Positions 2,874-51,579 of a stretch of DNA of 64,000 nucleotides are shown in pieces. The DNA is from Ostreococcus lucimarinus (Eukaryota). The number at the start of each line of letters is the position of its first letter. Within the stretch, counting starts at the first letter, position 1. Made by a program: the position numbers and the translations under genes. Under the pieces are notes generated by a model that saw nothing but the letters and a program-made list of their open reading frames with translations, made no database searches and was not told where the DNA came from. The stretch lies in assembly GCA_000092065.1 (NCBI GenBank), contig CP000589.1, one strand, 5' to 3'.

Positions 2874-3767
2874 ATGCGAAGCGAACGCGTTCGTCCGCAC
2901 TTCGCCGCGCGCGCGATGGCGTCGCGCCCTCGAGTCCTCGTCCTCGCCCGCGCGTCGTCCGCGTCGTCCGCGACGACGCGCGCTCCCGAGTACCGCGCCG
3001 CGGGCTATCGCACGTTCGTCGATCCATCGCCGAGCGCGAGCGCGACGCGCGTAAAGATTGACTGCGGACCCGTGCGCGCCTACACCGGCGGACGTTACGA
3101 CGGCGACACGCTCCGCGCGCCGTGGGATTCGGCGCAGACGACGCCCAAGGGCGACGGAGCGTCGAACTCGACGACGCAGCGCACGTACGTGTTCGACACG
3201 ACGCTCGCCGGGGCGAGCGAAGTGCTGAGCGTGACGGCGGCGAGGCCGCTGGGAATAATCTTCGAAGACGACGCCGACGGACGCGCGCGCGTCGCTGATT
3301 TCGTGAAAGGGAGCGATGCGGCGCGAGCGAACGACGTCGCGGCGCTGGCGCCGTTCGGAAGGCAGTGCGCGCGACGAGGGGACGTGCTGCGGGCGTTCAC
3401 GGCGACGCAGGTGGTGTATCGGACGACGGCGGCGCTGACGGGGGATTTGAGCGGTACGAAACGCGTGCGGACGCTGTTCGGCGCGGACGAGGTGCCGTGG
3501 GGGGAGGTGAGCGCGGCGTTGGCGAACGGGAGGGTGGCCGATGGGCCGATCACGTTGGTATTGGAACGCGACGGCGATCGCGAACGCGCCGAAAATTGGC
3601 CGAGAAGAGAAGAGGAGCTCGAGTTTAGGGGGTTGGGCGACGAGAGCACGCAGGCGAAGAGGCAGCGAGAACGCTTCGAATCGGATGAAGACACCGAACG
3701 GGCGAATATCGCCTTCGCGGGCGCGATCGCGGCGTTTGTTCTGTTGATCCTCGCCGGGTTCTCGTAG
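2874..3767 (+). CDS. Hypothetical protein with PDZ-like fold region and C-terminal TM anchor (transit-peptide-like N-term)
   Basis: ORF; 'LGIIFEDDADGRARVADFVKG...GDVLRAF' PDZ-like; hydrophobic tail 'IAFAGAIAAFVLLILAGF'; ATG alternatives 2874/2916. Confidence 0.5.
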   Translation: MRSERVRPHFAARAMASRPRVLVLARASSASSATTRAPEYRAAGYRTFVDPSPSASATRVKIDCGPVRAYTGGRYDGDTLRAPWDSAQTTPKGDGASNSTTQRTYVFDTTLAGASEVLSVTAARPLGIIFEDDADGRARVADFVKGSDAARANDVAALAPFGRQCARRGDVLRAFTATQVVYRTTAALTGDLSGTKRVRTLFGADEVPWGEVSAALANGRVADGPITLVLERDGDRERAENWPRREEELEFRGLGDESTQAKRQRERFESDEDTERANIAFAGAIAAFVLLILAGFS

Positions 3768-10840: not shown

Positions 10841-11041
10841 AGCGTACAACTGGTGCTCATCTGGACGTGATCTCGACCGACTGCGACGAGTCGTCCTCCT
10901 CGGCGACTCGTCGCAGTCGGTGTACGTGATCTCGACCGACTGCGACGAGTCGTCCTCCTCGGCGACTCGTCGCAGTAGCGTACAACTGGTGCTCATCTGG
11001 ACGTGATCTCGACCGACTGCGACGAGTCGTCCTCCTCGGCG
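10841..11041. repeat. Tandem ~68-bp repeat (3 copies) carrying a 17-bp perfect-stem hairpin
   Basis: 'gtgatctcgaccgactgcgacgagtcgtcctcctcggcgactcgtcgcagt' at 10867-10917, 10926-10976 and truncated at 11003-11041; flank 'agcgtacaactggtgctcatctggac' repeated at 10841 and 10977; arms ccgactgcgacgagtcg / cgactcgtcgcagtcgg are reverse complements. Confidence 0.9.
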
Positions 11042-12255
11042 TCGGTGTAGAATTGAGTCTTCAGCTGTCCACCGATGACCACGACGGTATACGCCGCCAA
11101 CAGCGCGGTGATGGTGGAAAACTCCATCTCTGATAAGTAGCGCTCGCCCGTGAGCGGGTTGTGCGCCATGAAAAGGGTCAGTAAAACGCCCCAACCACCT
11201 ACGAAGGTGGCCCAAAACGATCCGGCGATCCACACGGCGTCTCGAGTGAAGAGCGCGCGTGAAAGCATCAAGGCGTTACCGCTCGTGATGAACACGCTCG
11301 TGAGCACGGACAACCCCTGTAACAACTCTGGAGTGCTCAAATTGCTCGCGATTTGCGCCACGGGCATGGACATGAAGAGCGCGGTGGCGGTCCAACCGCT
11401 ACATTCGCTCCATTTGCTCGGCAGCGCGTCGGCTCGCGAGGCGAAGACGAGCGCTAAAATGGCGAGCTCAGACGGAAGCCACCCCAGCGCCGGGGTCAAC
11501 GCGTTCGATATGATCTGCGGCGTCGCGATGATGCCGATGATTCCCAAAGCGGCTTGGTACAGCTCCCACATTTTCTGCCCTCGCTCGCCGTGGGCGTAGT
11601 CGAAGTATCGCGCCACGCTGAGCGACGTCCCGGCGATGATGAACGCGCTCGACGCAAACATCACCGCCGGCGCGACGTTGTGAATGTTCCCCGTCCACGC
11701 GATTTGCGTGAGGAGCATGAACGACGTCGTCACCCCGATCGCCTGCGCCGCCGTCGCCGCGGGTTCGCGCTTATCGGCGAAGTAACTCAGCAGCAACAAG
11801 TTCCCGAGCATCCCGGCGCCGTACCCCTGCCACGAAACCGCGCCCAACGCCATCAAATCCCCCGCCATCACGTTCACGTAATTCTTCCAAATCTGCGGAA
11901 ACGTCAGCAGCGTCAACGGCGCCATCGCGAAGAAGGACAAAGTCTCCGTCGTCGCGTCCAACTTTTCCAGCGCCGTCGCCTCGCCGCGCCGTCCCTCGAT
12001 CGCGTCCCTCTCCCCTCCTCGTCGCGTCTCCCTCGCGCGCGTCGCGCGCGCCGTCCCTCCCGCGCCATCCTCTCGACCCTCCCGCGCGGCTTTCGCGGCC
12101 GTCGCGCGTCGCGCGTCGTCGTCGCGCCCCCGACTTCTGAGATTCGCCGTCGCGCGTCCAACGAACTCGCGTCCGCGCCGTCGCCCGCGTCGTCGTCCCG
12201 TCGCCTCGCCGCGCGCGTCGCGCGCGACGACGCGCGCGCGCGGCGTCACCGCCAT
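10993..12255 (-). CDS. MEX1: Maltose excess protein 1-like chloroplast maltose exporter (MEX1)
   Basis: ~9 TM; 'LLLLSYFADKRE', 'CSGWTATALFMSMPVAQIASNLSTPELLQGLS', 'GNALMLSRALFTRDAVWIAGSFWAT' match Arabidopsis MEX1. Arg/Ala-rich transit-peptide-like N-term; ATG at 12255, alternative 12285. The upstream part of the 756-aa ORF is Arg-rich read-through. Confidence 0.8.
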   Translation of the reverse strand: MAVTPRARVVARDARGEATGRRRGRRRGREFVGRATANLRSRGRDDDARRATAAKAAREGREDGAGGTARATRARETRRGGERDAIEGRRGEATALEKLDATTETLSFFAMAPLTLLTFPQIWKNYVNVMAGDLMALGAVSWQGYGAGMLGNLLLLSYFADKREPAATAAQAIGVTTSFMLLTQIAWTGNIHNVAPAVMFASSAFIIAGTSLSVARYFDYAHGERGQKMWELYQAALGIIGIIATPQIISNALTPALGWLPSELAILALVFASRADALPSKWSECSGWTATALFMSMPVAQIASNLSTPELLQGLSVLTSVFITSGNALMLSRALFTRDAVWIAGSFWATFVGGWGVLLTLFMAHNPLTGERYLSEMEFSTITALLAAYTVVVIGGQLKTQFYTDAEEDDSSQSVEITSR

Positions 12256-12759
12256 CGCCGTCGCCCGCGCGACGGTCGTCGGCATCGCCGCCGTCGCGCT
12301 CTCCCGCGCCGTCGTCGTCGTCGTCGTCGATCGCGCGTCGAAAGATCCAATCGTCGATCGTCGCGTCGGTCGCTTTTTCGACCGTCGACGACGATCGCGC
12401 GCCGATGGGCGTTCGTATCGCGTCTGTACGAGACGCGCGACGCGCGCGCGCGACGCGCCGGCGCGCGCGATCGGTCGGTCGCCGCGATCGGCGCGCGGCG
12501 ACCGACCGACCGCGCGCGCGCGTCGCGTGACTGTTTGCGCACACGGCGCGTCGACCGCGCGTCGCGCCGCGCGCGAAAATCTCGTCGCGCGGCGCCAGAC
12601 CCTGACGTTGGATGTGTTTACCTCGACGTCGCGGCGCGTCTCGCGGTGCGTATTTCGGACGACGTTTGCGGTATCGATCGATCGCGGGCGATCGACGTCG
12701 CGCTGTCGGGCGATCGCGCGCGCGCGTCGCGAGACGGCGACGCGACGACGTCGCGCGCG

Positions 12760-35470: not shown

Positions 35471-37447
35471 ATGACGGCGCGCCATGACGCGCGCGCGCGA
35501 GCCGGTCGACGCCGCGTCGTCATCGTCGCGGTGTTGGCGGCCTGGGCGTGGGCGACCGCGGCGAGTGCGGCGCCGTTCGAGAACGCCGCGGCGCTCAAAG
35601 CAGCGGTGAACAATTGCCTCGCGGCGAGTCACACGGGTGATTGCGATTGCTCGAGCGCGTCTGTGGACTGTGGGGCGGCGGGGAGCGACGCGATGTCGCA
35701 GTGGGACACGAGTCTGGTTCCGGACATGAGCTACTTGTTCCACGACGCCCGTTCCTTCAATCAGTCCATCGGGAACTGGAATACGAGTCAAGTAACGAAC
35801 ATGGTTGGGATGTTCTTGTACGCCGCTGCTTTCAATCAGCCCATCGGGAACTGGGACACGAGTCAAGTGACTAACATGACTGACATGTTTGCGATCGCCC
35901 GTTCCTTTAACCAACCCATTGGTGACTGGAACACGAGCCAAGTCATGGACATGCGTTTTATGTTCGCTACTGCTTATGCTTTCGATAGTCCTATCCGCAA
36001 CTGGGACATCAGCCAAGTGACGAACACGAGTTACATGTTCTATTCTATTGCTGCATCTTTCAATGTTTTCAACCAATCCGTCGAGAACTGGAACACGAGC
36101 CAAGTTATGGACATGCGTGGGATGTTCGGGAACGCACGTTACTTCAACAAGCCTATCGGCGGCTGGAACACGAGCCAGGTTACGGACATGCGTAACATGT
36201 TCGTTACCGCCTCTTCCTTCAACCAGCCCATCGGTGACTGGGACACGAGCCAGGTTACGGACATGCGTTACATGTTCGCTACCGCCTCTTCCTTCAACCA
36301 GCCCATCGGTGACTGGGACACGAGCCAGGTTACAGACATGCGTGGAATGTTGGGGTCTGTGTCCTTCAATCAGCCCATCGGGAACTGGAACACGAGCCAG
36401 GTTACAGACATGCGTACGATGTTCGCTACCGCCTCTTCCTTCAACGCGCCTATCGGTGACTGGAACACGAGCCAAGTTACAGACATGGGTAGAATGTTTT
36501 ACGCAGCCTCTTCTTTTAACCGGTCTATTGGCGACTGGAACACGAGCCAAGTCACGGACATGCAGTCGATGTTTTACGCCTCTTCATTCGATCAACCCAT
36601 CGGGAACTGGGACACAAGCCTAGTCACATACATGAATTCGATGTTCAACAGCGCAGTTTCCTTCAACCAGTCTATCGGTGGCTGGAACACGAGCCGAGTG
36701 GTGAGCATGCAGTCGATGTTCGCGAACGCATTTTCCTTCAACCAGCCCATCGGGAACTGGAACACGGGCCGAGTGGTGAGCATGCATTCCATGTTTGACA
36801 GCGCAGTTTATTTCAACCAGCCCATCGGGAACTGGAACACGGGCCGAGTGGTGAGCATGAATTCCATGTTTGACAGCGCAGGCTTTTTCAACCAGCCCAT
36901 CGGGAACTGGGACACGAGCCAGGTTACAGACATGAATTCCATGTTTGATAGCGCAGGCTCTTTCAACCAGCCCATCGGGAACTGGAACACGAGCCAGGTT
37001 ACAGACATGAATTCCATGTTTGATAGCGCAGGCTCTTTCAACCAGCCCATCGGTGACTGGGACACGAGCCAGGTTACAGACATGCATTGGATGTTCCAGG
37101 GTGCCTCTTCCTTCAACCAGCCTATTGGAGACTGGGATACGAGCCAAGTGGTGACCTCGTACTCATTTAGCGAAATGTTCAAGGACGCAACGGCGTGGCT
37201 ATGCTCACACACACACAATACGTCGGATCCGATGCATTTTCAAAGATACTACGATGGTCCACCGTCTTTTTGGTTCGAGTCAGCGGCTGGAATCGGTGCA
37301 GTGTGCTTGTCTCCACCACCGCCAACCACACTACCGTGTGTATATGTCGCCGCCCCTCCGTTGACCGCAAGGTCGACTGGAACCGCGAGGTCGAGTGTCG
37401 CACTCTCGCTATATACGACAGTCATTATCATATACTTCCACGCCTGA
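35471..37447 (+). CDS. Secreted/surface tandem-repeat protein, 20 x 25-aa 'FNQPIGNW[ND]TSQVTDMxxMFxxAxS' repeats (Mycoplasma DUF285-type motif)
   Basis: Signal peptide '[20 protein letters not shown]', a ~60-aa head, then 20 near-regular 25-residue repeats, a Cys-containing tail and a hydrophobic C-terminus (GPI/TM-like). Confidence 0.75.
35700..37200 (+). repeat. 75-bp tandem repeat array x20 (coding; DUF285-like protein)
   Basis: Periodicity evident at DNA and protein level; units 17 and 18 identical at protein level ('NW[DN][22 protein letters not shown]'). Confidence 0.9.
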
Positions 37448-37642
37448 AACTGAGACAGAAACTGAGACATCGCACATTCACAAATCCTACAAGGATATGA
37501 TACCGTAGTCATAGTGGATATATACAGTGCTGCTCTCGCATTTCCAGTTCCTACCTGATGAATACTGGATTATGGGGTGATTTTCAAACAAGTGTAGAGT
37601 ACTAGCCTCCATTTCTCGCTTGTTCTTGAAATACAACTTGAA

Positions 37643-39808
37643 TTACAACTCGAGGCAAACTGAGGGCGTCGAGACATAATCGCCATCACCTGTCGCAGCG
37701 CGCGCGAAAATCTCTATCACGACGTCGGCGGCGGTGGCGGGCGTGAGTCCGCACGCCACGACGGGAACGACGATGATAGAAACGTCGTACACGCGCCGAA
37801 TCGCCGACGCGAGAGTCTCACTGAGCGCCGAATCGACGCTTAAATTATGATACAGTCGGCATGTGGACACATGCGACGCGGTCAGCTCGGCTTCGCCTAA
37901 ATACAGTGCGATTCGTGCCAAGATGTGCCCGTTGGTGAGCTCATCACTTTTCAAGACGGCTTGTTTGACGCTGATTGAACACTGGAGGAATCGCCCTGGG
38001 CGGCGAACGCTCGTCGATTCCATCACGTCGCAAGCCGAGTCGCCTCGCACAGACTCGCGCACGAGCGTTTCCTCGCCATCGAACGATTCTTCGTCGCCGA
38101 GAGGTCCTGTGCCGACGAGCAACGTGGGAGCGATCTCACCGATGGCGTTCTTTGGAAGATCGGTGACGGTGAGGTACGTCGTCGTCGGGCGCCATAGAAA
38201 TCTTCGTCCACTCTGCGCGACGACGCGTTCGAAGGACGCCGACATCACGTTCGCTGGATGCACGCCCTCTGCTTCGTAGTCTGCGTTGTACTTCGCACTA
38301 GTGTAGAACGTCACCGCCAGCGCTCGTTCACCAAGTGGCGCACCCGTGATGTCTGCGACAGCGACGGCGCTCGCCATCGCGCGGTCGAGTTGGGCAACTA
38401 TTCCGGGCACCAAGTCTAACGTTGTCGGCTCCATACCGATTTGCCCGGCCACGTACGCCAGGCCGTTCACACGAATCGACTGACCGTACGGCCCGATGCA
38501 CGCGGGAGCCCACGACGACAGTGACTGCACGTGTAGTGATTTTCGTTCGTTACCGCCGTCGAGGATGAACAAGCAATCAATCTGAACCTTGGCGTCGCCG
38601 GGCAAGCACGTGGCGACGCACGCGCGGGCGCTGGGCGCGACGGGCGGCATGTATCTAGAATACACGCCATTAACCGTTGCGAACTGGCTCATATCATCTA
38701 GATAAACGTGCGTCATGGCGACATTACGCCACGCCTCAGTCGCCCCGTCCTCGCCGAGTTTTTCGGCGACGAGAGCGCGCATCGTCTGAAAAATAGCCTC
38801 CGCACACGTTTCGTGCGTCTCGCTCGCTGGATCTGCGGCGCGCAAAGACACCGAAAGTATCGAACCCACTAAGCCTATCGTGTGATGCACACGGCAGGTC
38901 GTACCTGTGACTGCAACGCAACCTTCGGTTTCGGCCGTGAACTCCAACGTCGCGGACGCCGTCGCCGACGCTCTCACGCGAGGCGCGTCGTCTTCGACCC
39001 AAATCACCCTCCCGGGCGCGATTTCATCCCCCTTCTCTTTGAGCACGACGTCAAACGCGTCGATGACCAAGTGACCGCTCGGCGCGAATCGATCTTCGCT
39101 CGTCTTCACCGTCCTCGTCTCCGTAATCGCCAAACTCGCGCGAGCGAACATCGGACAATCCACCACGAGCGTCTCAAACTCCCCGCCTTCGCCCGCGCAG
39201 TGCGACCCGTACTCATCTTCAACCCTAATCAGCGTCTCCCTCGCGTCCGCGATGGACATCCCCAAGTGTTTCCCCGGATCCAATCCCATCGCCGCCACCT
39301 TGACCAGACGCGCGTCGACGCCCTCCGCCTCCACCCGCCGTAAAACCTCTCGCTGTTCCACGCGCCACAGCGGCGCCAACGACGTCAGCCCCAGGCTCGC
39401 GCACACCGCTTCCACCCGCAACCGCTGATAATCGCTCAGTATCGCCCCCGAGCACACGCTATTCACATCCGGTCGCTCGCGTTTCGCCGCCGCCAACGCC
39501 GCGCGCAAATCCTCCACCTCGTCCCCCTCCTCTCCGTCCCCGTACTCCAGCCCCAGCGCCTTCGACCGCCCCGTGATCCGTCGGCGGTACACGTCCAACC
39601 CCGCGCACGCCGCGAACGCCCCCACGCACTCGTGCGCGACCGTCTGAAAGCAGTGCGAGTCCACCTCGCGCGTCGCCGCGTCCCTCGGGCACAGGTTGAC
39701 GAGGCACGCCACCGTCGCGTCCGCGCGCCTCGACGTCTCGATCGCCGCCAAAACGCCGTCCTTGCCGCCGGACACGAGCGCCGCGCACGCGTACCGCCGC
39801 TCGGGCAT
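37643..39808 (-). CDS. DPH6: Diphthine-ammonia ligase (DPH6/ATPBD4): PP-loop ATPase + two RidA/YjgF domains
   Basis: 'AALVSGGKDG' PP-loop, 'SVCSGAILSDYQRLRVEAVCASLGLTSLAPLW', then two RidA-like modules ('..AGQIGMEP..'). Same architecture as yeast Dph6. ATG 39808. Confidence 0.85.
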   Translation of the reverse strand: MPERRYACAALVSGGKDGVLAAIETSRRADATVACLVNLCPRDAATREVDSHCFQTVAHECVGAFAACAGLDVYRRRITGRSKALGLEYGDGEEGDEVEDLRAALAAAKRERPDVNSVCSGAILSDYQRLRVEAVCASLGLTSLAPLWRVEQREVLRRVEAEGVDARLVKVAAMGLDPGKHLGMSIADARETLIRVEDEYGSHCAGEGGEFETLVVDCPMFARASLAITETRTVKTSEDRFAPSGHLVIDAFDVVLKEKGDEIAPGRVIWVEDDAPRVRASATASATLEFTAETEGCVAVTGTTCRVHHTIGLVGSILSVSLRAADPASETHETCAEAIFQTMRALVAEKLGEDGATEAWRNVAMTHVYLDDMSQFATVNGVYSRYMPPVAPSARACVATCLPGDAKVQIDCLFILDGGNERKSLHVQSLSSWAPACIGPYGQSIRVNGLAYVAGQIGMEPTTLDLVPGIVAQLDRAMASAVAVADITGAPLGERALAVTFYTSAKYNADYEAEGVHPANVMSASFERVVAQSGRRFLWRPTTTYLTVTDLPKNAIGEIAPTLLVGTGPLGDEESFDGEETLVRESVRGDSACDVMESTSVRRPGRFLQCSISVKQAVLKSDELTNGHILARIALYLGEAELTASHVSTCRLYHNLSVDSALSETLASAIRRVYDVSIIVVPVVACGLTPATAADVVIEIFARAATGDGDYVSTPSVCLEL

Positions 39809-40104
39809 CGCGACTCGCGACGCCGCGCGTCGACGCCGAGTGGCGTCGACGCCGCGCGACGTCGACGCCGCCTTATCCGCGCCGCACACGTCGACGCCGC
39901 GCGCGAGCGACGCGAACGCAGAGCGCGCGTGCGACGCGCGCGCTTCCGATGGCGATGACGACCGCGCGAGGGGCGACGGCGACGCGCGCGCGCGCGAGGG
40001 CGACGACGATCGGCGGAAAGAAGAGGGATGGCGAGACGACGCGCGCGCGAGGACGCGCGCGGACGCGCGCGCGCGCGGACGCGCGCGAGGCGCGCGAAAA
40101 AACG

Positions 40105-42024
40105 ATGGGACGACGCGCGGCGATCGGCGTCGCGGCGATCGCGCTGCACGGAGGAAAACGGAACGCGGCGCGGGCGGAGGAGGAGGCGGCGGCGACGGGG
40201 ACGGCGACGGCGACGCCGCGGGGGACGGCGAACGCGCTGGACGCGTACGAGATGGCGACCAGGAGCGGTGGGAACTCGAACACGGCGAAAGCGATCGTGA
40301 ATAAGGGCGAGAAGAAGAGCAAGGTGAAGATTGAGGCGAAGGAGGCGTCGAGCGGGCCGCCGGGGGCGCTGCTCGGAGCGATTCCCGTCGTGCTCGGTCT
40401 CGGCGGATTCGCCGCGTTCAAATCGTTGAGCGGCGGGTCGTCGGCGGATGACGACGATGACGACGAGCCGATTCGTGCGCCGCCGAAGAAGCCGTCGTTG
40501 CCGAAATTTGAGGCGCCGAAGGTTGTGCCGCCGAAGTTTGACGCGCCCGAGATTGACGCGCCCAAATTTGAAGTTCCCAAGTTTGAGATGCCGAAGATTC
40601 CGGGCGTCGGCGGCAGTGGTTTGCCACCGGATGCGCCTCGCGCGGGCTTCCCATCGCGCGCGGATTCTTTCGCTGAGGAGGAGGAAGAACAAGAGGAAGA
40701 AGAGGAAGCCGTCGAAGACGAAGACAGAGAGGCGCGCAAAGCGCGCCGCGCAGCTGAACGAGCCGAGCGCGAAGCCGAGCGCGCCGCGCGGGATGCTGAG
40801 CGTGAAGCAGCTAAGGCGCAACGCGCCGCTGAGCGTGAAGCCGTCGAAGACGAAGACAGAGAGGCGCGCAAAGCGCGCCGCGCAGCTGAACGAGCCGAGC
40901 GCGAAGCCGAGCGCGCCGCGCGGGATGCTGAGCGTGAAGCAGCTGAGGCGCAACGCGCCGCTGAGCGTGAAGCCGCAGAAGCTGAACGAGCTCAGGCGAA
41001 GGAAGCCAAGGCGCGGGAGGCGGAACGCATCGAGCGCGATCGCAGCGCCGAAGAGAGAGACGCGGCTGAACGTAAGAAACGCGAAAAGCAGCTCATCGAA
41101 CAGGAGCGCGAGCGTATCAAGGCCGAAAAGCGAGTCCGTGCGGAACAACAGCGCGCGGCCCGCGATGCGGAAAAGGCTGAGCGCCAAGCGGAAAGGGATG
41201 CGCGCGAAGCGGAGCGACAGGCTGAAAAGGAAGCTCGAGCCGCCGAGCGAGCGGATCGCAAGGCCGCAAACGCTCTCCTCAAGTCCAAGCCAAAGTCAGC
41301 GCCGGAACCCAAGGAAGCCAAGGAAGAGAAATCGTTCACGCAACTCTTTGCGAAAAAGAACGTCGAAGACAGCGAACCACCGGCCAAAACGCAAGTCATG
41401 AAAAAGGCGAAGCCCGAGCCGATTGCGCGAACTCAAGTCATGTCCAAGAGTGGGAAATCGTCTGGCGTGGCCGAATTGCCATCCAAATTCCCGAGCGTTG
41501 AGGATTTGGAAGGTTTAAGCAAGGAAGAAAAGCTTGCGATCGCCGATGAGGCCGACGCCTTCGCCGAACGCTTGGTTCGTAAGGCTGAAGCTGCGGAGAA
41601 ATTCGCCAACGGTCCGGTCGTCGGCGTCCTCTTCTTCTTGAAGTCTGGCGCCATCAAGTCCGCTGAGCGTGCCGCCGAGGTCGCAGAGCTCGCCGAAGCG
41701 ACCGCCGCGCAAGTTCGATCGGCGGCGGAGCGCGGCGATGGCATCTCTGGCGCCGTTATCGGCGCCATCGCCGCGACCGTTCTCGTCGGCGGTGGCGCCG
41801 CGTTGTTGGGCGGCTCGTTGTTGGGCGGCGATAACGCACCCTCCTCCGGACCCAAGGCTGTGGCCATCAAGAAAGCTGCGGCTCCCAAGGCATCGGCACC
41901 TATGTTCGCCGCGCCGCCTCAAGAGGCGCCCAAGCTTCGCGATTTGGAAGCTCTCGAAGCCATCGAGAAACTGAACAACGGCGAAGGCGACGCGTTGGAC
42001 CTGTACGAACAGATGCGCCGCTAA
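40105..42024 (+). CDS. Membrane-anchored Ala/Glu/Arg/Lys-rich coiled-coil protein (unknown function)
   Basis: Hydrophobic segment 'GALLGAIPVVLGLGGFAAF', long ERA-rich coiled coil with an exact 44-aa duplication, C-terminal TM 'AVIGAIAATVLVGGGAALLGGSLLGG'. Start 40105 (ATG) or 39949. Confidence 0.5.
   Translation: MGRRAAIGVAAIALHGGKRNAARAEEEAAATGTATATPRGTANALDAYEMATRSGGNSNTAKAIVNKGEKKSKVKIEAKEASSGPPGALLGAIPVVLGLGGFAAFKSLSGGSSADDDDDDEPIRAPPKKPSLPKFEAPKVVPPKFDAPEIDAPKFEVPKFEMPKIPGVGGSGLPPDAPRAGFPSRADSFAEEEEEQEEEEEAVEDEDREARKARRAAERAEREAERAARDAEREAAKAQRAAEREAVEDEDREARKARRAAERAEREAERAARDAEREAAEAQRAAEREAAEAERAQAKEAKAREAERIERDRSAEERDAAERKKREKQLIEQERERIKAEKRVRAEQQRAARDAEKAERQAERDAREAERQAEKEARAAERADRKAANALLKSKPKSAPEPKEAKEEKSFTQLFAKKNVEDSEPPAKTQVMKKAKPEPIARTQVMSKSGKSSGVAELPSKFPSVEDLEGLSKEEKLAIADEADAFAERLVRKAEAAEKFANGPVVGVLFFLKSGAIKSAERAAEVAELAEATAAQVRSAAERGDGISGAVIGAIAATVLVGGGAALLGGSLLGGDNAPSSGPKAVAIKKAAAPKASAPMFAAPPQEAPKLRDLEALEAIEKLNNGEGDALDLYEQMRR
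40708..40971 (+). repeat. Near-perfect 132-bp tandem duplication inside coiled-coil gene
   Basis: 'gccgtcgaagacgaagacagagaggcgcgcaaagcgcgccgcgcagctgaacgagccgagcgcgaagccgagcgcgccgcgcgggatgctgagcgtgaagcagct[a/g]aggcgcaacgcgccgctgagcgtgaa' repeated at 40708 and 40840; one mismatch. Confidence 0.9.
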
Positions 42025-45296: not shown

Positions 45297-45345
45297 ACTT
45301 TTTTCGCGCGATGGATGAAACGACTTTTTTCGCGCGATGGATGAA

Positions 45346-45382
<37 letters not shown>

Positions 45383-45385
45383 TCA
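45297..45385. repeat. 25-bp direct duplication 'ttttttcgcgcgatggatgaaacgac' x2 followed by (GAC)12
   Basis: Read directly; lies between the importin-alpha stop and the ADAM-like start. Confidence 0.85.
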
Positions 45386-45490
45386 CTAGCTCTTGAAATC
45401 AACGCAAATATTCACCCGCGTCGCCGCGCCACCTGGAGTTTCATAACGTCACCCAACAGCCGCGCTCGCGTCGCCACACGCGCGCGCGCC

Positions 45491-48040
45491 ATGCGCCCGA
45501 TCGCGCGATCGCGCGCCCGCGCGCGCGAAACACTTCGCGGCGCGTGGTTCCGGCTCGCGATCTGCGCCGCCTGCGCCCTCGCGCGCGCGAAATCCGCGCG
45601 AGGGCACGACGATGACGCATCGGGACGCGGCGCGCCCGCGTGGGTGTTGACGACGCTCACCGACGTTCGAGCGCGCGCGAGCGTCGACGGTGGCTACGCG
45701 CCCGAGGTGACGTTCACGCTCGATGCGTTCGGGACGTCGCACGACGTGCGCGTGGCGGTGAACGAGGAATTGACGTCGGGAGGGTGCGCGGCGAAACGGC
45801 GACTGGGCGCGAGCGACGCCGACTCGAGACGCCGACGCGAGGAGGGTCGGAGAAAACGCGAGGGAGGGCGGCGCGCGCGCGAGCTTTCGTCGGAGACGTC
45901 GAGCGCGCGCGCGCACGTGGAGACGATCGGGGAGAGCGATTTCGAGGTGATACCGATGGGGGCGTTCGGCGCGCGCGGCGCGGCGCGATGCCAGTATTTG
46001 GGCGCGACGACGAACGCGACGGTGAGAACCGCGGCGGCGTGCGCGCTGTGCGATGGGTTCGTCAAAGGGCAGATACGCTCGCGAAATGTGACGATCGCGT
46101 TCGAACAGGCGAGCGAGGCGGCGGCGGCGGCGTACTTGGCTTCGCGGACGATGCCGAGCGGGCGACACGCGCTCGAATACGTCGTGCTCAACGTGAGCAC
46201 CGTGCACGCGCACGAGGGGGGTAAGATTGACGAACCACGCATTATGGGGCCGGAAAGGCTCACGTACTTGGACGTTAATGGAAACGCGATGAGCATCGAG
46301 GAGGTTGAGCGGCAGGCGAAGGAGGCAAAGGAACCGGAAGACGCTGACCGCCGCCGAAAGCTTTTGCAAAGCTCGCAGCGATACATCGAACTCGTCGTCG
46401 TCAACGACTACGCGCGGTGTCAAATGTTTAACGGTGACGCGGATGCGTTAGAGGCGGACACGCTCTACGTCGTGAATGTCGTAAATTCGCTGTACGAAAA
46501 CGCATTCTCGCCGCCGATCAAAATAATCCTGAAGGACGTCGTATCGTTCACGGGTGGAGATCCGTACGAGCTCACGTGGCTTTCTGGCTCCGAGGAGGCC
46601 GCGGAAGAAATAATTGACGACATTAACGCGTGGCGGCGGGCGAATATAGGCTCCATCGCGGCGCACGACATGATGCACTTGTTCTCAGGGCTCGATTTCT
46701 ATGGCGTCGGCGACGAACCTGGTGAGAGTTCGCCTCACGTTATTGGCTTAGCGTCGCAGTACGCCGACTTCGGGTACAGCGGCGCTTGCGTGCAGTCAAA
46801 ATACTGCTCACAACTGCCCCCGGGAGTGTCGTCGGGTAGCGCTATGCTCACCGAGGGGGGCTGTTACGTTATATCTGGGCTGAAGTACTGCTGCTTCACC
46901 GCTGTGCAAGTCGCGGCGATCTCGATGGTTTGGAAAGCCAGCTCGCAACGAGACGCCATCACCGTCGCGCACGAAATCGGTCACCAACTCGGCTTCTCGC
47001 ACGATCACGTTGATTACGACTCGTGTCCGCAGTACGGCCAGATCATGGCAGTATACGCTAACTGGGAACTCGAGGTCGATTGGAGCACGTGCTCGAAGAC
47101 GGAATACGCTGCAAAAATCGGCGATATTTATCACGAATGTTTACTCGAGACGGAAACCGCGAGCACGTCGGTGTGCGGAAACGGGATCGTCGAGCCTGGG
47201 GAGCAGTGCGATTGTCCGGACAAAAACTGCACGTGTTACGATCACTGCTGCAATGCAGAGACGTGTCAGCTTTTGACGAACGCCACGTGTTCCGCGGTTG
47301 ATGGTTGCTGCGACGCTTCGACGTGCACGGTTGCCGCGTCGGGCACGGTTTGTCGCGCGTCGCTCGGCTCGTGCGACACCGCGGAAACGTGTGATGGAAC
47401 ATCGAAATCGTGTCCTGTGGACACGATCACGGCTTATGGAACCGCCTGCACGGACGCGAACGGTGATGTAGGCGCTTGTTGGGCAAACGAGTGCCGCAAT
47501 CGAGATTGGAAGTGTCAGGATTTAAGTGCGAACACGTACGGCGGCGTGCGAACGTCCACCGCGCGATGTCCGGCAACGGCGTACGCGCCCGCGCAAATCG
47601 CGGGCTCGTCGACCGCGTGCTCGAGTGGCGAAGGAGCTCAACCGTGGTATTGCTTCTCGGACGCCACGTCATGCTACGCTGGCTTGTACGCTGGCTTTAC
47701 TACGATAAACGCGTCGCTCGGCTTTCCCTGCGGCGCCGCGACTGCGGGAGTGCACTCGAACGTGTGCGATGGTTTGGGTTCGTGTGTGGCGCTGTCGTCG
47801 GTGATGCCGACGTACACTTCACCTTTGCCGACGTTGTCGCAACAACGCGAGCGAGACTGCGCCGCCTATCCAACGCCGACGGGGTACGTGCATCCCGTCG
47901 TCACGCCGCCTTCCTCGACGCCTGTTCCGTCGTCGACGCCGCCGACGACGCCGCCGTCGACGCCGTCGAGCGCGCCGATTCGAACTATTTCAACGCTGCT
48001 GTATATGTTGACGCTGACGCTCTGCCTGTCGCTCTCTTAG
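45491..48040 (+). CDS. ADAM/reprolysin-like zinc metalloprotease with disintegrin and Cys-rich domains, S/T/P stalk, hydrophobic C-terminus
   Basis: Signal peptide, pro-domain, M12B site 'HEIGHQLGFSHDH', disintegrin-like 'CGNGIVEPGEQCDC..' and many Cys, then 'PPSSTPVPSSTPPTTPPSTPSSAP', tail 'ISTLLYMLTLTLCLSLS'. Confidence 0.75.
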   Translation: MRPIARSRARARETLRGAWFRLAICAACALARAKSARGHDDDASGRGAPAWVLTTLTDVRARASVDGGYAPEVTFTLDAFGTSHDVRVAVNEELTSGGCAAKRRLGASDADSRRRREEGRRKREGGRRARELSSETSSARAHVETIGESDFEVIPMGAFGARGAARCQYLGATTNATVRTAAACALCDGFVKGQIRSRNVTIAFEQASEAAAAAYLASRTMPSGRHALEYVVLNVSTVHAHEGGKIDEPRIMGPERLTYLDVNGNAMSIEEVERQAKEAKEPEDADRRRKLLQSSQRYIELVVVNDYARCQMFNGDADALEADTLYVVNVVNSLYENAFSPPIKIILKDVVSFTGGDPYELTWLSGSEEAAEEIIDDINAWRRANIGSIAAHDMMHLFSGLDFYGVGDEPGESSPHVIGLASQYADFGYSGACVQSKYCSQLPPGVSSGSAMLTEGGCYVISGLKYCCFTAVQVAAISMVWKASSQRDAITVAHEIGHQLGFSHDHVDYDSCPQYGQIMAVYANWELEVDWSTCSKTEYAAKIGDIYHECLLETETASTSVCGNGIVEPGEQCDCPDKNCTCYDHCCNAETCQLLTNATCSAVDGCCDASTCTVAASGTVCRASLGSCDTAETCDGTSKSCPVDTITAYGTACTDANGDVGACWANECRNRDWKCQDLSANTYGGVRTSTARCPATAYAPAQIAGSSTACSSGEGAQPWYCFSDATSCYAGLYAGFTTINASLGFPCGAATAGVHSNVCDGLGSCVALSSVMPTYTSPLPTLSQQRERDCAAYPTPTGYVHPVVTPPSSTPVPSSTPPTTPPSTPSSAPIRTISTLLYMLTLTLCLSLS

Positions 48041-49251: not shown

Positions 49252-51579
49252 ATGATGAAGACGATCGAGACGACGAAGACGCATCGGCGATCGGCGCGCG
49301 GCGTCGAACGACGGCGCGGGACGACGACGCGCGCGGAAGGACGCGCGGGACGACGACGGCGCGACGATGCGTCGAACGAACGTCGTCGTCGCGGGCTCGG
49401 GGCGATGCGCGCGCGGGACGAAGGACGGAGGGACGAAGCGCGCGGGGACCGGGACGGCGAGCGGCTTCGGGAGAGCGGCGCGGTCGCGTTGGCGATCGCG
49501 TTCGGGTTGGGATTCGCGAGCCCGAGCGCGAGGGCGGTGTGGCCGTTTCGGACGGTGCGAGCGACGACGTCGGAGGTGTCGGAGAGCGAACATCGGTCGG
49601 TGGTGGAGATGTTCGCCGAGGCGTTCGAGGAAGCCGAAGCGGCGGTCGAAGCCGAAGTCGTCGAAGTCGTCGAAGACGTCGTCGCGAAGCGAGACGGCGC
49701 GGCGGTCGGGGCGGTTCTGGTTCCGGCCGCGTGCGTCGTCGCCGTCGCGGCGCTCGCGTGCGTGACGTATGCACAGCGGTACGCGTTAATGTTGTGGGCG
49801 ACGAAGGCGTTGGATCAGTGGGAGGCGAACGATCCAAACTTTCCGAGCAAGCAGCTGCGATGGCAACAACTCTTGGACGAGGAGGTGAGCAAGAGGGAGG
49901 CTTTGAACGAGGAATGGCTCGAGCGATTACAGGCGGAAAAGGCGAAAACCAAAGCGAACGCGGATGAGATGCAACAGCGCATCGAAGAAGAACGCGCGCT
50001 CGCGCTGGACATGCGCGCGAACGCGACGGCTCTGGAAACCGAGTTCAGAGCGCTCATCGACGAACAACGCGCCGCCTCTGGGGCGCGCGAAGAAGAGTTA
50101 CACGGACGCATCGTCGAGGAACAGGCCAAGTTCGCGAGTCTTTCCGCGGAGGCTGGATCTCTCCGCGAGCAAATCAGTTCGCTCGAGGCGCAGTTGACGA
50201 GGAAGTCGGATTCATCAAACGACTTGAAAGAAGAGCTACTCTCGGCGCGACGGGCTGAAGAAGTCGTCAAATCCGAACTCGCCGGCGTGTGTGCGGCGAA
50301 GGATGCGCTCGCGCGACAGCTCGACGAAGTGCGTACGAATCTCACGTGGGAAACTTCGAAGGCGAGCGAGCTCGAGGAACAGCTCAGCGCGCTCAAGTCT
50401 GAGCTCGCCAGCGCTCGCGACGCGAGGGCCGAACTTGAGCGAGAGCTCGAAGGCGCCCGCGCTAACCTCGCCGTTGAGTCGTCGAACGAGCACGAGCTCG
50501 AAGAACAGCTCAGTGCGCTCAAGTCTGAGCTCGCCAGCGCTCGCGACGCGAGGGTCGAACTTGAGCGAGAGCTCGAAGGCGCCCGCGCTAACCTCGCCGT
50601 TGAGTCGTCGAACGAGCACGAGCTCGAAGAACAGCTCAGTGCGCTCAAGTCTGAGCTCGCCAGCGCTCGCGACGCGAGGGTCGAACTTGAGCGAGAGCTC
50701 GACGCCATGCGCGACGGATTTGAAGCACAACTCGAGGCGCAGAAAGGCGCTGGCGCCGATATGAAACTCGAATCAGAGCGTCTCGAGGAACTGGTCGCGA
50801 AATTGAAGAACGAAATCGAGGCGAACAGTGTGCTTCGCGAGCGAATGCAAACCGAAAAGCAAGCGGAAGACTCCTACGTGACGGCCCTCAACGAGGAGAT
50901 TGAGGCTTTGCGCTTGGAGTTGCACGCGGCGCAAGCGCACGCGGCGCAAGCGCTCGGGCAGTACGCTGAACTTGATTCTGCGCTACCAAAGATCATCGAC
51001 GCAGTCGACCGCTTGCGCAGTCTTACGAGCATGGTAAACGAAGATAGCCCGATCGTAGAGCACACGTTCAGCGTCGCCGACGTACCACCACCGCAGCCGA
51101 ACGAGTTCCTCGTCATCGTCGGTTCATGGAATGACTGGGATCTCGCCACGGGCGTCGCGATGTCGTACGACCCCGATGGCAGCTGGAAAGCGCTTGTTGA
51201 GCTTCAGTCTGACATCGTGTACGAGTATAAGGTTTGTGTTTGTTCGGGGTCCGATGAAGAGCGCGTGCCCCAGGCCTGGCAATCCGGCGCAAACTCGGCG
51301 TTTGCGATCGCCTCCTCGTTGATCAACGAACAAGGTTTAGCGCCTAAGGCGACGGTGATGAGTCACTGGGTCGCAGATCCTGCGAACGCGCCAATTATGA
51401 TGTTCGGTCCCGACGGCGAAAAGTTCACGTTGAGCTCCACTCAACTCATGACCGATCTTCCTGCTAACTTAATCACGGACACGCTCGAGGATCTGTCGCA
51501 CGTCATCTCCGAGGTGACGAGGGGAATCGACAACGACATCCTCAATACCAAGCAGCACGCGGCGACGGCTTCGCGTTAA
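49252..51579 (+). CDS. Coiled-coil protein with C-terminal CBM20/CBM48-like starch-binding module (PTST-like)
   Basis: TM 'AVGAVLVPAACVVAVAALACV', ~450 aa coiled coil incl. 3x42-aa repeats, C-terminal 'FLVIVGSWNDWDLATGVAMSYDPDGSWKALVELQSDIVYEYKVCV' CBM-like. The first 300 codons of the 1079-aa ORF are antisense to the OMT gene; start 49252 or 49405. Confidence 0.5.
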   Translation: MMKTIETTKTHRRSARGVERRRGTTTRAEGRAGRRRRDDASNERRRRGLGAMRARDEGRRDEARGDRDGERLRESGAVALAIAFGLGFASPSARAVWPFRTVRATTSEVSESEHRSVVEMFAEAFEEAEAAVEAEVVEVVEDVVAKRDGAAVGAVLVPAACVVAVAALACVTYAQRYALMLWATKALDQWEANDPNFPSKQLRWQQLLDEEVSKREALNEEWLERLQAEKAKTKANADEMQQRIEEERALALDMRANATALETEFRALIDEQRAASGAREEELHGRIVEEQAKFASLSAEAGSLREQISSLEAQLTRKSDSSNDLKEELLSARRAEEVVKSELAGVCAAKDALARQLDEVRTNLTWETSKASELEEQLSALKSELASARDARAELERELEGARANLAVESSNEHELEEQLSALKSELASARDARVELERELEGARANLAVESSNEHELEEQLSALKSELASARDARVELERELDAMRDGFEAQLEAQKGAGADMKLESERLEELVAKLKNEIEANSVLRERMQTEKQAEDSYVTALNEEIEALRLELHAAQAHAAQALGQYAELDSALPKIIDAVDRLRSLTSMVNEDSPIVEHTFSVADVPPPQPNEFLVIVGSWNDWDLATGVAMSYDPDGSWKALVELQSDIVYEYKVCVCSGSDEERVPQAWQSGANSAFAIASSLINEQGLAPKATVMSHWVADPANAPIMMFGPDGEKFTLSSTQLMTDLPANLITDTLEDLSHVISEVTRGIDNDILNTKQHAATASR
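50362..50706 (+). repeat. 126-bp tandem repeat x~2.7 inside PTST-like CDS (42-aa units)
   Basis: 'gagcacgagctcgaagaacagctcagtgcgctcaagtctgagctcgccagcgctcgcgacgcgagggtcgaacttgagcgagagctcgaaggcgcccgcgctaacctcgccgttgagtcgtcgaac' copies at 50362, 50488, 50614; copies 2 and 3 identical. Confidence 0.9.

What the first reader, a model, noticed from the sequence alone, without database searches (positions are those of the whole stretch)
49252..51579. Membrane-anchored coiled-coil protein ending in a CBM20/48-like module: candidate starch-granule targeting/scaffold protein (PTST-like)
The architecture TM + ~450-residue coiled coil + C-terminal 'GSWNDWD...YEYKV' carbohydrate-binding-like module recalls plant PROTEIN TARGETING TO STARCH proteins and other glucan-binding scaffolds. 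The coiled coil contains three 42-aa units, two identical at DNA level, so the stalk length is evolving rapidly. The same window also encodes the MEX1 maltose exporter. In a Mamiellophyceae cell, where the starch granule is positioned within the plastid, such a scaffold is a good candidate for granule initiation or positioning.
Basis: inference. Interest (0 to 1): 0.5.

Follow-up and report, generated by a model that had tools for sequence, protein, structure and literature searches.

The report
Membrane-anchored coiled-coil starch-binding protein
This gene of a marine green picoalga encodes a protein with a membrane anchor, a long rod-like stalk whose length varies between natural populations, and a true starch-binding (CBM20) head, which makes it a good untested candidate for holding starch at a fixed distance from a chloroplast membrane in algae that lack the plant machinery for this.

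Summary
Window 49252-51579 (+) is a real 775-aa gene. It encodes a basic N-terminus, a weak hydrophobic segment, an acidic stretch and one strong TM helix (res 150-172). These are followed by a ~390-aa proline-free heptad-periodic stalk holding a 126-bp x2.7 tandem repeat, and a C-terminal glucan-binding module.

The module is a genuine CBM20, not CBM48:
- Pfam PF00686 passes threshold.
- The family profile hits the A. niger glucoamylase starch-binding domain at E=6.6e-9.
- All starch-binding-site-1 residues are invariant.

It belongs to an undescribed small family. Every full-length member has a membrane anchor, a stalk of 127-4109 aa, and a CBM20 with a conserved 30-aa extension. The anchors differ: bitopic, LysM+TM, or an NCS1-permease-like domain.

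Near-identical alleles in marine metagenomes carry independent in-frame stalk duplications of 126, 138 and 210 bp.

Best reading (inferred): a plastid-membrane tether or spacer for starch. It is functionally analogous to MFP1+PTST2 or STBD1 but not homologous beyond the CBM. Localisation and glucan binding are untested. 'PTST-like' is right only as an analogy.

The parts
49252..51579 (+). Complete intron-less ORF, 775 aa plus stop
   Evidence: Translation. Full-length orthologues P0007 (44% identity) and P0008 (37%). Conserved synteny Methyltransf_3(-)/gene(+)/PRMT5(-)/DUF1350(+) in L001 and L002.
49252..49476 (+). Basic, poorly conserved N-terminal extension (res 1-75; 32% Arg, net charge +12): a possible plastid transit peptide, but its translation is not proven
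   Evidence: Composition. All three orthologues have 75-125 aa of R/A/T/S-rich sequence before the first hydrophobic segment. 0/310 bp differ from L002 here versus 5/351 bp upstream. Codon-position GC is not decisive.
49477..49557 (+). Weak Gly/Ala-rich hydrophobic segment h1 (res 76-95) ending in Ala-x-Ala, followed by the conserved motif W-P-[FW]-[KR]
   Evidence: Alignment A3. Kyte-Doolittle stays below 1.5 over 19 residues, so it is signal-peptide-like or a weak TM. Pro at +1 in P0007 and P0008 argues against cleavage there.
49558..49698 (+). Acidic Val/Glu/Ala-rich segment between h1 and the TM helix. It should lie on the side of the membrane opposite the stalk. One allele carries a +3 aa (VVE) length variant here.
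   Evidence: Composition. P0201 variant.
49699..49767 (+). Transmembrane helix (res 150-172)
   Evidence: Kyte-Doolittle 19-residue mean up to 2.55. A TM in the equivalent position is present in every full-length family member.
49768..49848 (+). Conserved juxtamembrane segment Y..RY...L...WEANDPNFPS (res 173-199)
   Evidence: Invariant columns Y173, R176, Y177, L187, D194, P195, F197, S199 in A3.
49849..51021 (+). Coiled-coil stalk (res 200-590). The two ends are conserved and the middle is variable.
   Evidence: 1 Pro in 391 aa; E/A/L/R/S-rich; heptad periodicity z=4.2. Heptad score profile. Sub-threshold hits to coiled-coil Pfam families only. Conserved 'SK.EAL.EEW.ERL' near the membrane and 'LDS..P.II..VDRLRSL' before the CBM.
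50367..50702 (+). Tandem repeat inside the stalk: 126 bp (42 aa = 6 heptads) x 2.7
   Evidence: TRF score 651, 98% match. Unit comparison. 733-aa alleles lack exactly one unit. Two scaffolds have assembly gaps at the repeats.
51052..51372 (+). CBM20 starch-binding domain (res ~601-707) with intact binding site 1: W629, K660, W676 (plus E658, N681)
51373..51471 (+). Family-specific conserved extension after the CBM20 (res 708-740: 'ADPANAPI..FGPDGE...LSSTQLMTDLP')
   Evidence: Conserved across all family groups (P112, P116, G124, T132, L134 in A2 numbering). Modelled as two short strands plus a helix at pLDDT about 86-94. It scores on its own in some relatives.
51472..51576 (+). C-terminal helical tail ending in a conserved terminal Arg
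   Evidence: Low-confidence helix. The final residue is Arg in all group A and B members whose C-terminus I saw.

Best explanation
The gene encodes a membrane-anchored tether, or 'spacer', for alpha-glucan.

Shown by computation:
- One strong TM helix holds the protein in a membrane.
- A roughly 390-residue, proline-free, heptad-periodic stalk follows. It would span about 55-60 nm if it forms a continuous coiled coil.
- The stalk projects a C-terminal CBM20 whose canonical starch-binding site 1 (two Trp and one Lys) is intact and invariant across the family.
- The CBM20 is followed by a conserved 30-residue extension that is a likely partner-binding surface.

Inferred, not shown:
- The membrane is a chloroplast membrane (inner envelope or thylakoid), and the stalk and CBM20 lie in the stroma.
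- There the head binds the starch granule, the pyrenoid starch sheath or malto-oligosaccharide primers.
- This would fix where starch sits, or is started, relative to the membrane. One polypeptide would do what thylakoid-anchored MFP1 plus CBM48-bearing PTST2 do in Arabidopsis, and what TM-anchored STBD1 does for glycogen in animals.
- Stalk length would set the membrane-to-starch distance. It is free to vary, as the repeated in-frame duplications show.
For: Architecture.

CBM20 identity:
- Pfam PF00686 passes its cut-off for the isolated domain (24.4 vs 23.3 bits). It scores up to 40.9 bits in relatives.
- The family profile hits the A. niger glucoamylase SBD 1ac0 at E=6.6e-9 and the STBD1 CBM20 at 2.5e-4.
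- AF2 model: pLDDT 84.4, pTM 0.76.

Binding site: W629, K660 and W676 align to Trp543, Lys578 and Trp590 (site 1) and are invariant in 21 family sequences. W645 aligns to site-2 Trp563 and is >=90% conserved (site definitions from PMC9920598).

Family plan: every full-length relative has a TM anchor, then a Pro-poor stalk of 127-854 aa (4109 aa in P0036), then the CBM20 plus extension.

Indirect support for a plastid-envelope, stroma-facing topology:
- One paralogue group is anchored by an NCS1-permease-like domain (PF02133, 35.5 bits vs cut-off 23.5). The sole Arabidopsis NCS1 member, PLUTO, sits in the inner plastid membrane (PMC3951388). From established knowledge of Mhp1, NCS1 termini face the cytoplasm-equivalent side, which here is the stroma.
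- Another group has a LysM-like domain on the far side of the TM.
- All three orthologues have long basic N-terminal extensions.

Biological need: green algae lack SS4, PTST2/3, MFP1 and PII1, so another mechanism must exist (bioRxiv 10.1101/2024.10.03.616402). The Micromonas pyrenoid is wrapped in polysaccharide (PMC10473226).

Stalk plasticity.
Against: - No localisation predictor or experiment was available. The N-terminal 50-75 residues cannot be proven to be translated.
- In orthologue P0008 a Met lies just before h1, which would give an ER-type signal peptide.
- The organism was not identified with these tools, so 'Micromonas/Mamiellophyceae' is inferred.
- The NCS1 and LysM arguments come from paralogues, not from this protein. 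The LysM evidence is weak (E 0.003-0.03).
- Only one of the three site-2 residues is conserved.
- The Pfam score of this particular protein is only 1 bit above the cut-off.
- Glucan binding is untested.
- Oligomeric state and stalk continuity are unknown, so the nm figures are upper estimates.
Confidence: 0.5

Rival explanations
1. It is an STBD1-like receptor that faces the cytosol. The protein enters the ER or another endomembrane through h1 acting as a signal peptide. The stalk and CBM20 then face the cytosol, where they bind cytosolic glucans (heteroglycan, or released starch and plastid fragments), for example for autophagic turnover.
For: - The best Foldseek hit is the STBD1 CBM20.
- STBD1 has the same order of parts: an N-terminal TM and a C-terminal CBM20 (PMC5358331, PMC11406230).
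- h1 plus Ala-x-Ala looks like a signal peptide, and P0008 has a Met 8 residues before it.
- Some paralogues end in acidic-plus-hydrophobic tails that resemble Atg8-interaction motifs ('DEDFIVIDI').
Against: - Green-algal starch is plastidial (established knowledge).
- In this allele and in P0007 the nearest usable Met lies 24 to 60 residues or more before h1, which is atypical for ER signal peptides.
- This protein's own tail has no aromatic LIR-like motif.
- The paralogue with the NCS1-like anchor points to the plastid envelope.
Confidence: 0.15
2. It is a generic membrane-bound structural coiled coil, for example a thylakoid, nucleoid or division-site organiser. The CBM20-like head would serve protein-protein contacts or regulation rather than starch tethering.
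For: - CBM20/48 folds are also used as interaction modules: the STBD1 CBM20 is needed for its protein-protein interactions (PMC4076837 abstract), and the AMPK-beta CBM is a structural neighbour.
- The conserved extension and the conserved stalk ends suggest protein partners.
- This protein's Pfam score is marginal.
Against: - Invariance of exactly the three residues that define starch-binding site 1, across paralogue groups only 25-40% identical, is hard to explain without glucan binding.
- All top fold matches are glucan-binding CBM20s.
Confidence: 0.15
3. It is a SAGA1/SAGA2-type pyrenoid protein that glues the starch sheath to the Rubisco matrix.
For: - SAGA1/2 combine a CBM20 with long helical regions. 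Their authors predict non-homologous functional equivalents in other algae (PMC13167743).
- Micromonas has a polysaccharide-encased pyrenoid (PMC10473226).
Against: - There are no matches to the Chlamydomonas Rubisco-binding motif [DN]W[RK]xx[LIVA], although that motif is lineage-specific.
- The protein is membrane-anchored, and Micromonas pyrenoids are described as lacking traversing thylakoids. The anchor end therefore cannot be in the matrix.
- Relatives of this family with short stalks look Ostreococcus/Bathycoccus-like, which would mean the family also occurs in algae without pyrenoids. Their taxonomy is unverified.
Confidence: 0.08
4. It is not a real gene, only a chance ORF in GC-rich DNA.
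For: Long spurious ORFs are common here, including overlapping ORFs of 297-500 aa on the other strand and a 304-codon open extension upstream.
Against: - Full-length conserved orthologues in conserved synteny.
- A significant CBM20 match.
- A coding-type GC2/GC3 pattern.
- More than 100 near-identical gene calls in independent metagenomes.
Confidence: 0.01

Closest known systems
STBD1 / genethonin-1 (animal glycogen receptor)
   Same: The parts come in the same order, with an N-terminal membrane anchor and a C-terminal CBM20. STBD1's CBM20 is the best Foldseek match (8x8k, TM 0.81) and is hit by the family profile (E=2.5e-4). The concept is the same: tethering an alpha-glucan particle to a membrane.
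   Different: STBD1 is ER-resident, binds cytosolic glycogen and is an autophagy receptor (PMC5358331, PMC11406230). No comparable long heptad stalk is described for it. There is no detectable homology outside the CBM20, and the 30-aa post-CBM extension is specific to this family.
MFP1 + PTST2 starch-initiation module of Arabidopsis
   Same: MFP1 is a thylakoid-bound coiled-coil protein. PTST2 is a coiled coil with a C-terminal CBM that binds malto-oligosaccharides (as summarised in PMC13167743 and bioRxiv 10.1101/2024.10.03.616402). This protein has anchor, coiled coil and C-terminal CBM in one chain.
   Different: PTSTs carry CBM48, whereas this protein carries CBM20. PTSTs are soluble. MFP1, PTST2/3, PII1 and SS4 are reported absent from Chlorophyta. 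The resemblance is an analogy, not membership.
SAGA1 / SAGA2 and BSG1 of Chlamydomonas
   Same: All are green-algal, non-enzymatic CBM20 + coiled-coil proteins implicated in starch sheath or granule morphology (PMC13167743, PMC6374437).
   Different: In BSG1 the CBM20 is N-terminal (res 72-150) with a short coiled coil, and no TM is reported. SAGA1/2 have Rubisco-binding motifs, which are absent here, and are stated to be restricted to Volvocales. None appeared among the 48 profile hits, though organisms could not be checked.
CBM20 starch-binding domains of amylolytic enzymes (A. niger glucoamylase SBD, B. cereus beta-amylase, CGTases)
   Same: The fold and binding-site-1 residues are conserved.
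   Different: Those domains are attached to catalytic domains. This one has no enzyme domain, site 2 is only partly conserved, and it carries an extra conserved C-terminal extension.

Membership tests
CBM20 (CAZy family 20 / Pfam PF00686 starch-binding domain) | Significant sequence match to the family profile across the whole domain | tested here: met
   Isolated C-terminus: 24.4 bits vs cut-off 23.3, profile positions 5-90 of 97. Relatives score up to 40.9 bits. The family profile hits the archetype 1ac0 at E=6.6e-9 over residues 6-107 of 108. The full-length protein alone does not reach the cut-off because of coiled-coil bias.
CBM20 (CAZy family 20 / Pfam PF00686 starch-binding domain) | Beta-sandwich fold superposable on solved CBM20 structures | tested here: met
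CBM20 (CAZy family 20 / Pfam PF00686 starch-binding domain) | Starch-binding site 1: Trp543, Lys578, Trp590 (A. niger numbering) | tested here: met
   These align to W629, K660 and W676, which are invariant in the 21-sequence family alignment. Site definition from PMC9920598.
CBM20 (CAZy family 20 / Pfam PF00686 starch-binding domain) | Starch-binding site 2: Tyr527, Tyr556, Trp563 | tested here: inconclusive
   Only the Trp563 equivalent (W645) is conserved (>=90%). The Tyr527 and Tyr556 equivalents are not. Site 2 is known to vary among functional CBM20s.
CBM20 (CAZy family 20 / Pfam PF00686 starch-binding domain) | Demonstrated binding to starch, cyclodextrin or malto-oligosaccharide | not testable with these tools
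   Needs recombinant protein.
PTST (PROTEIN TARGETING TO STARCH 1-3) | C-terminal CBM48 | tested here: not met
PTST (PROTEIN TARGETING TO STARCH 1-3) | Coiled coil N-terminal to the CBM | tested here: met
   Stalk at res 200-590, heptad periodicity z=4.2.
PTST (PROTEIN TARGETING TO STARCH 1-3) | Soluble stromal protein (no membrane anchor) that interacts with GBSS or SS4 | tested here: not met
   A strong TM is present. SS4 is reported absent from Chlorophyta. The interactions themselves are not testable here.
MFP1 | N-terminal membrane anchor plus a long coiled coil, bound to thylakoids | tested here: inconclusive
   Anchor and coiled coil are present, but the membrane identity is unknown. 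MFP1 homologues are reported only in seed plants, and I had no MFP1 sequence to compare.
SAGA1/SAGA2 | Copies of the Rubisco-binding motif [D/N]W[R/K]xx[L/I/V/A] | tested here: not met
   0 matches. The single relaxed match (SWKALV) lies inside the CBM20.
SAGA1/SAGA2 | CBM20 plus long helical or coiled-coil region | tested here: met
STBD1 | N-terminal TM anchor plus C-terminal CBM20 | tested here: met
   This is an architectural match only.
STBD1 | ER residence, Atg8-family interaction motif, glycogen cargo | not testable with these tools
   Localisation and interactions need experiments. No obvious acidic-aromatic LIR is present in this protein's tail.

The most novel reading that the evidence does not exclude
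This is the founding member of a prasinophyte/green-picoalgal family of plastid-membrane 'molecular rulers' that replaces the missing MFP1-PTST2-SS4 system. A membrane anchor (bitopic, a LysM domain reaching the envelope peptidoglycan, or a co-opted NCS1 permease) would fix one end. A coiled coil of 20 to 600 nm would set the distance. A CBM20 plus a conserved partner-binding extension would nucleate or hold starch at that distance. Together these would determine where the single granule or the pyrenoid sheath forms and how it is partitioned at division. The stalk-length alleles that segregate in natural ocean populations would tune that geometry.
Probability: 0.2. Interest if true: 0.8.

Novelty: new variant of a known kind. 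Interest (0 to 1): 0.55.

Why it matters
How starch is started and positioned in green algae is an open question. The Arabidopsis initiation complex (SS4, PTST2/3, MFP1, PII1) is reported to be absent from all Chlorophyta. The Chlamydomonas SAGA proteins are reported to be confined to Volvocales.

In Ostreococcus a single granule must be positioned and split at each division. In Micromonas the starch forms the CO2-barrier sheath of the pyrenoid.

A conserved family of membrane-anchored CBM20 proteins gives concrete, genetically tractable candidates for that job. Ostreococcus supports homologous recombination. The naturally varying stalk length offers a built-in test of a 'spacer' mechanism: does starch-to-membrane distance scale with stalk length?

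It also supplies a compact, single-chain design for tethering starch to membranes in pyrenoid and CCM engineering.

Tried and rejected
- Pfam on the full-length protein gave only sub-threshold coiled-coil noise and a weak CBM53 hit. The domain had to be isolated first.
- AF2 on a 3-sequence alignment was too poor to use (pLDDT 52). I repeated it with 21 sequences.
- A single-sequence PDB search was uninformative (E about 0.6).
- The afdb50 fold library was unavailable.
- Organism identification failed. The collections give no taxonomy for eukaryotic contigs, and a literature search for WGS prefix MDSY found nothing. 'Micromonas' is therefore inferred from GC content (about 62-64%), compact intron-poor genes and abundance in Tara and other marine metagenomes.
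- MEX1 has no Pfam model and no PDB relative, so the candidate ORF stays unverified. Two other ORFs I checked as candidates are not MEX1.
- Codon-position GC could not settle whether residues 1-50 are translated.
- 733-aa versus 775-aa alleles as proof of copy-number polymorphism: I rejected this as decisive. The exact repeat (147-161 bp) exceeds typical assembly k-mers, so a collapse artefact is possible. Two scaffolds break inside their stalk repeat arrays. The 138-bp and 210-bp duplications create novel junctions and are the reliable evidence.
- h1 as a cleaved lumen-type signal is weakened by Pro at +1 in two orthologues.
- The group A N-terminal anchor has no detectable similarity to the other groups' anchors.
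- A long-read contig carrying a group B paralogue has 69% GC and many frameshifts, so it did not show whether the same species has both paralogues.
- Literature searches for a described TM + coiled-coil + CBM20 algal protein found none.
Full report
**1. What is there**

Window 49252-51579 (+) is an uninterrupted 775-codon ORF. The window is GC-rich (58-68% around the gene). Long chance ORFs abound, including an open frame 304 codons upstream and shadow ORFs of 297-500 aa on the other strand. So I checked that the gene is real.

- Full-length orthologues exist at 44% (P0007, 699 aa) and 37% identity (P0008, 723 aa).
- The P0007-type gene sits in the same neighbourhood in scaffold L001: O-methyltransferase on the minus strand, this gene, PRMT5 on the minus strand, DUF1350, SNF2 helicase. 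The same holds for the 99.3%-identical Tara scaffold L002.
- From about 49580 onward the frame shows low GC2 and high GC3.
- More than 100 near-identical gene calls occur in independent marine metagenomes.

49252 is the first in-frame ATG of this allele. An upstream ATG used by some gene callers is ACG here. The first 310 bp of the ORF show no differences from L002, against 5 in the 351 bp upstream. Whether the first ~50 residues are translated is still not proven.

**2. Anatomy**

- Residues 1-75 are very basic (32% Arg) and poorly conserved.
- Residues 76-95 form a weak Gly/Ala-rich hydrophobic segment ending in Ala-x-Ala. A conserved W-P-[FW]-[KR] motif follows.
- Residues 96-147 are acidic.
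- Residues 150-172 are a strong TM helix (Kyte-Doolittle up to 2.55).
- A conserved juxtamembrane motif (Y..RY...WEANDPNFPS) leads into a stalk, residues ~200-590.
- The stalk has one proline, is E/A/L/R/S-rich, and shows hydrophobic periodicity at 3.5 residues. z=4.2 against 1000 shuffles, none reaching the observed value. The C-terminal domain as control gives z=0.1.
- Both stalk ends are conserved among orthologues. The middle is not.

**3. The repeat and stalk plasticity**

TRF finds a 126-bp unit (42 aa, six heptads) in 2.7 copies at 50367-50702, with 98% match. The two full units differ at 3 nt (one residue). The 84-bp partial third copy is identical to the second.

The other two orthologous lineages have unrelated internal repeats. 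P0007/L001 has a 105-bp period. P0008 has an 'EHSDAS..VAEL' duplication.

Within the window's own species-level population the protein occurs in several length classes:
- 733 aa: one 42-aa unit fewer, by far the commonest.
- 775 aa: the window's form.
- 779 aa: a separate 46-aa duplication.
- 803 aa: a separate 70-aa duplication, ten heptads.
- 736 aa: +VVE in the acidic segment.

At DNA level these are 138 bp x2.1 (three loci shown, L010-L012, out of nine contigs carrying this protein) and 210 bp x2.0 (L009). All are in frame and free of Ns.

Caveat on 733 versus 775. The exact repeat in 775-type alleles is 147-161 bp, longer than common assembly k-mers. A collapse to the 733 form cannot be excluded. 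Scaffolds L001 and L002 both break inside their stalk repeat arrays. The 138- and 210-bp duplications create new junction sequences seen in several samples and assemblers, so they are the reliable evidence. The stalk is a hotspot for in-frame length change.

**4. The C-terminal module**

- Taken alone, residues ~599-775 pass the Pfam gathering threshold for CBM_20 (24.4 vs 23.3 bits). CBM53 and CBM48 fall below threshold.
- An exhaustive profile search of 1.84 billion representatives with the C-terminal alignment found only 48 proteins at E<=1e-3. Many of them pass CBM_20 more clearly, up to 40.9 bits.
- A 21-sequence family profile hits the archetypal A. niger glucoamylase starch-binding domain (1ac0) at E=6.6e-9 over its whole length. 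It hits the STBD1 CBM20 at 2.5e-4.
- With that alignment AlphaFold2 gives pLDDT 84.4 and pTM 0.76.
- The listed Foldseek hits with E<=1e-3 are CBM20 domains or CBM20-bearing amylolytic enzymes, led by the STBD1 CBM20 with maltotetraose (TM 0.81).

Through the 1ac0 alignment, the three residues that define starch-binding site 1 (Trp543, Lys578, Trp590; PMC9920598) correspond to W629, K660 and W676. These are invariant across the family, as are the equivalents of Glu576 and Asn595. Of site 2, only the Trp563 equivalent (W645) is conserved, which is also common among working CBM20s.

After the last CBM20 strand comes a 30-residue extension ('W.[AP]DP...PI.....G.....[GS][ST]..L'). It is conserved across all groups and confidently modelled, and I found no counterpart among solved CBM20s.

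**5. The family**

Every full-length relative has the same plan: a membrane anchor, a Pro-poor stalk, then the CBM20 plus extension. Stalks range from 127 aa to 854 aa, and to about 4100 aa in one giant protein. If continuous coiled coils, that is roughly 19 to 127 nm, and about 600 nm for the giant.

The anchors differ:
- Group A (this gene, three lineages): h1 plus one TM.
- Group B (likely other Mamiellophyceae; taxonomy unverified): a similar h1, a Gly/Ala segment and a TM.
- Group D: a LysM-like domain, then a TM. Support is weak but consistent: Pfam LysM E=0.003; a profile search of PDB returns the intimin LysM domain at 0.014 and the chitinase-A LysM domain at 0.03.
- Group C (P0036, 4842 aa): an NCS1-permease-like polytopic domain, PF02133 at 35.5 bits against cut-off 23.5.

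The group A anchor has no detectable similarity to the others. What is conserved is the design, plus the CBM20 head.

**6. How it most likely works**

Shown computationally: a membrane anchor, a long heptad stalk and a CBM20 head with an intact site 1.

Inferred: the head binds starch or malto-oligosaccharides in the chloroplast stroma, and the anchor sits in a plastid membrane. The protein would then hold starch, or its primers, at a set distance from that membrane. Reasons for the plastid reading:
- Green-algal starch is plastidial (established knowledge).
- The sole Arabidopsis NCS1 member, PLUTO, is in the inner plastid membrane (PMC3951388). NCS1 termini face the cytoplasm-equivalent side (my knowledge of Mhp1). 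This would put the group C stalk in the stroma.
- In group D the LysM domain is on the opposite side of the single TM from the CBM20. That fits an inner-envelope protein reaching intermembrane peptidoglycan. This is a lead, not a result.
- All three group A orthologues have long basic N-terminal extensions.

Against: no predictor or experiment was available, the arguments from paralogues are indirect, and P0008 could start at a Met that would make h1 an ER-type signal. Pro at +1 after Ala-x-Ala in two orthologues argues that h1 is not cleaved there. A hairpin with both termini on the stromal side is equally possible.

**7. Comparison with what is known**

- By architecture the nearest known protein is animal STBD1: a TM anchor plus a C-terminal CBM20 that tethers glycogen to ER membranes (PMC5358331, PMC11406230).
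- By proposed role the nearest is the Arabidopsis pair MFP1 (thylakoid-bound coiled coil) plus PTST2 (coiled coil plus a C-terminal CBM48 that binds malto-oligosaccharides), as summarised in PMC13167743.
- It is not a PTST. The module is CBM20 rather than CBM48, the protein is membrane-anchored, and PTST2/3, MFP1, PII1 and SS4 are reported absent from Chlorophyta (bioRxiv 10.1101/2024.10.03.616402).
- It is not a SAGA or BSG1 type. BSG1 has an N-terminal CBM20 and no TM. SAGA1/2 carry Rubisco-binding motifs, absent here, and are said to be confined to Volvocales.
- Literature searches found no description of a TM + coiled-coil + CBM20 algal family. Database names are only 'hypothetical protein'.

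**8. Verdict**

It is wrong as a family assignment and is unproven on localisation and role.

I rate it a new variant of a known kind: non-enzymatic coiled-coil glucan-binding scaffolds. Interest is moderate to good, for three reasons:
- It offers concrete candidates for an acknowledged gap, starch initiation and positioning in green algae.
- The family's swapped anchors and naturally varying stalks make a spacer mechanism directly testable.
- Against this, everything beyond the domain assignments is inference.

Noticed in passing
P0036 (relative found; not in the window): A 4842-aa paralogue fuses an NCS1 (cytosine/purine permease-like, PF02133) polytopic domain to a roughly 4100-residue Pro-poor stalk and the same CBM20 plus extension. 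It ends in an acidic tail. If continuous, the rod would be about 0.6 um, roughly the size of a picoalgal chloroplast.
   Followed up: partly
P0011, P0012, P0015: A family branch has a LysM-like domain on the other side of the TM helix from the coiled coil and CBM20. This hints at a protein bridging a peptidoglycan-type layer and starch. The LysM evidence is weak (E 0.003-0.03) and the organisms are unknown.
   Followed up: partly
window 51574-51576 and the C-termini of relatives: All group A and B family members whose C-terminus I saw end in ...[G/N/S/T/H][P/A/S/T]-Arg-COOH (TASR, ATTR, GSPR, AGPR, INAR, NGTR and others), although the preceding tails are unrelated. A conserved terminal Arg suggests a sorting, processing or docking signal. 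I have no explanation for it.
   Followed up: no
L001 about 3470-3570 and L002 5842-5941: Two independent metagenome scaffolds carry runs of N inside the stalk repeat arrays of their copies of this gene. Short-read assemblies break or may collapse here, so published gene models of this family may have wrong stalk lengths.
   Followed up: yes
window 39949-42024 (+): A 691-aa ORF with no Pfam hit. It has a TM segment, an Asp/Glu run, and a near-perfect tandem duplication of a roughly 45-aa charged unit ('AVEDEDREARKARRAAERAEREAERAARDAEREAA...'), followed by C-terminal hydrophobic segments. It is a second repeat-bearing, membrane-associated helical protein in the same window.
   Followed up: no
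window 35471-37447 (+): A 658-aa protein made of six DUF285 repeats (PF03382, E=1.4e-196), a family named after Mycoplasma proteins. It lies in the lowest-GC stretch of the window (0.52 at 36001-38000 against about 0.64 elsewhere). It could be a foreign or fast-evolving island.
   Followed up: no
window 45311-48040 (+): The gene immediately upstream encodes a 909-aa protein with a signal-like N-terminus, a HExxH metalloprotease motif and a Cys-rich region. Its counterpart in L002 is annotated with Reprolysin and Disintegrin domains. This is an ADAM-like protease, unusual for a green alga.
   Followed up: no
window about 10996-12290 (-): A multi-TM ORF (about 8 hydrophobic segments) is preceded by a ~110-aa Arg/Ala/Thr/Gly-rich extension that resembles the N-terminus of the studied protein.
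   Followed up: partly
P0026, P0047, P0089: A lower-GC branch of the family ends in acidic runs followed by F/I-x-x-I ('DEDFIVIDI', 'DDIVTINI'). This resembles Atg8-interaction motifs, as in the glycophagy receptor STBD1. It is not present in the window protein.
   Followed up: no
window 49815-50708 (-): A 297-aa Ser-rich ORF on the opposite strand repeats with the same 126-bp period. It is a shadow of the stalk repeat, not a gene.
   Followed up: yes
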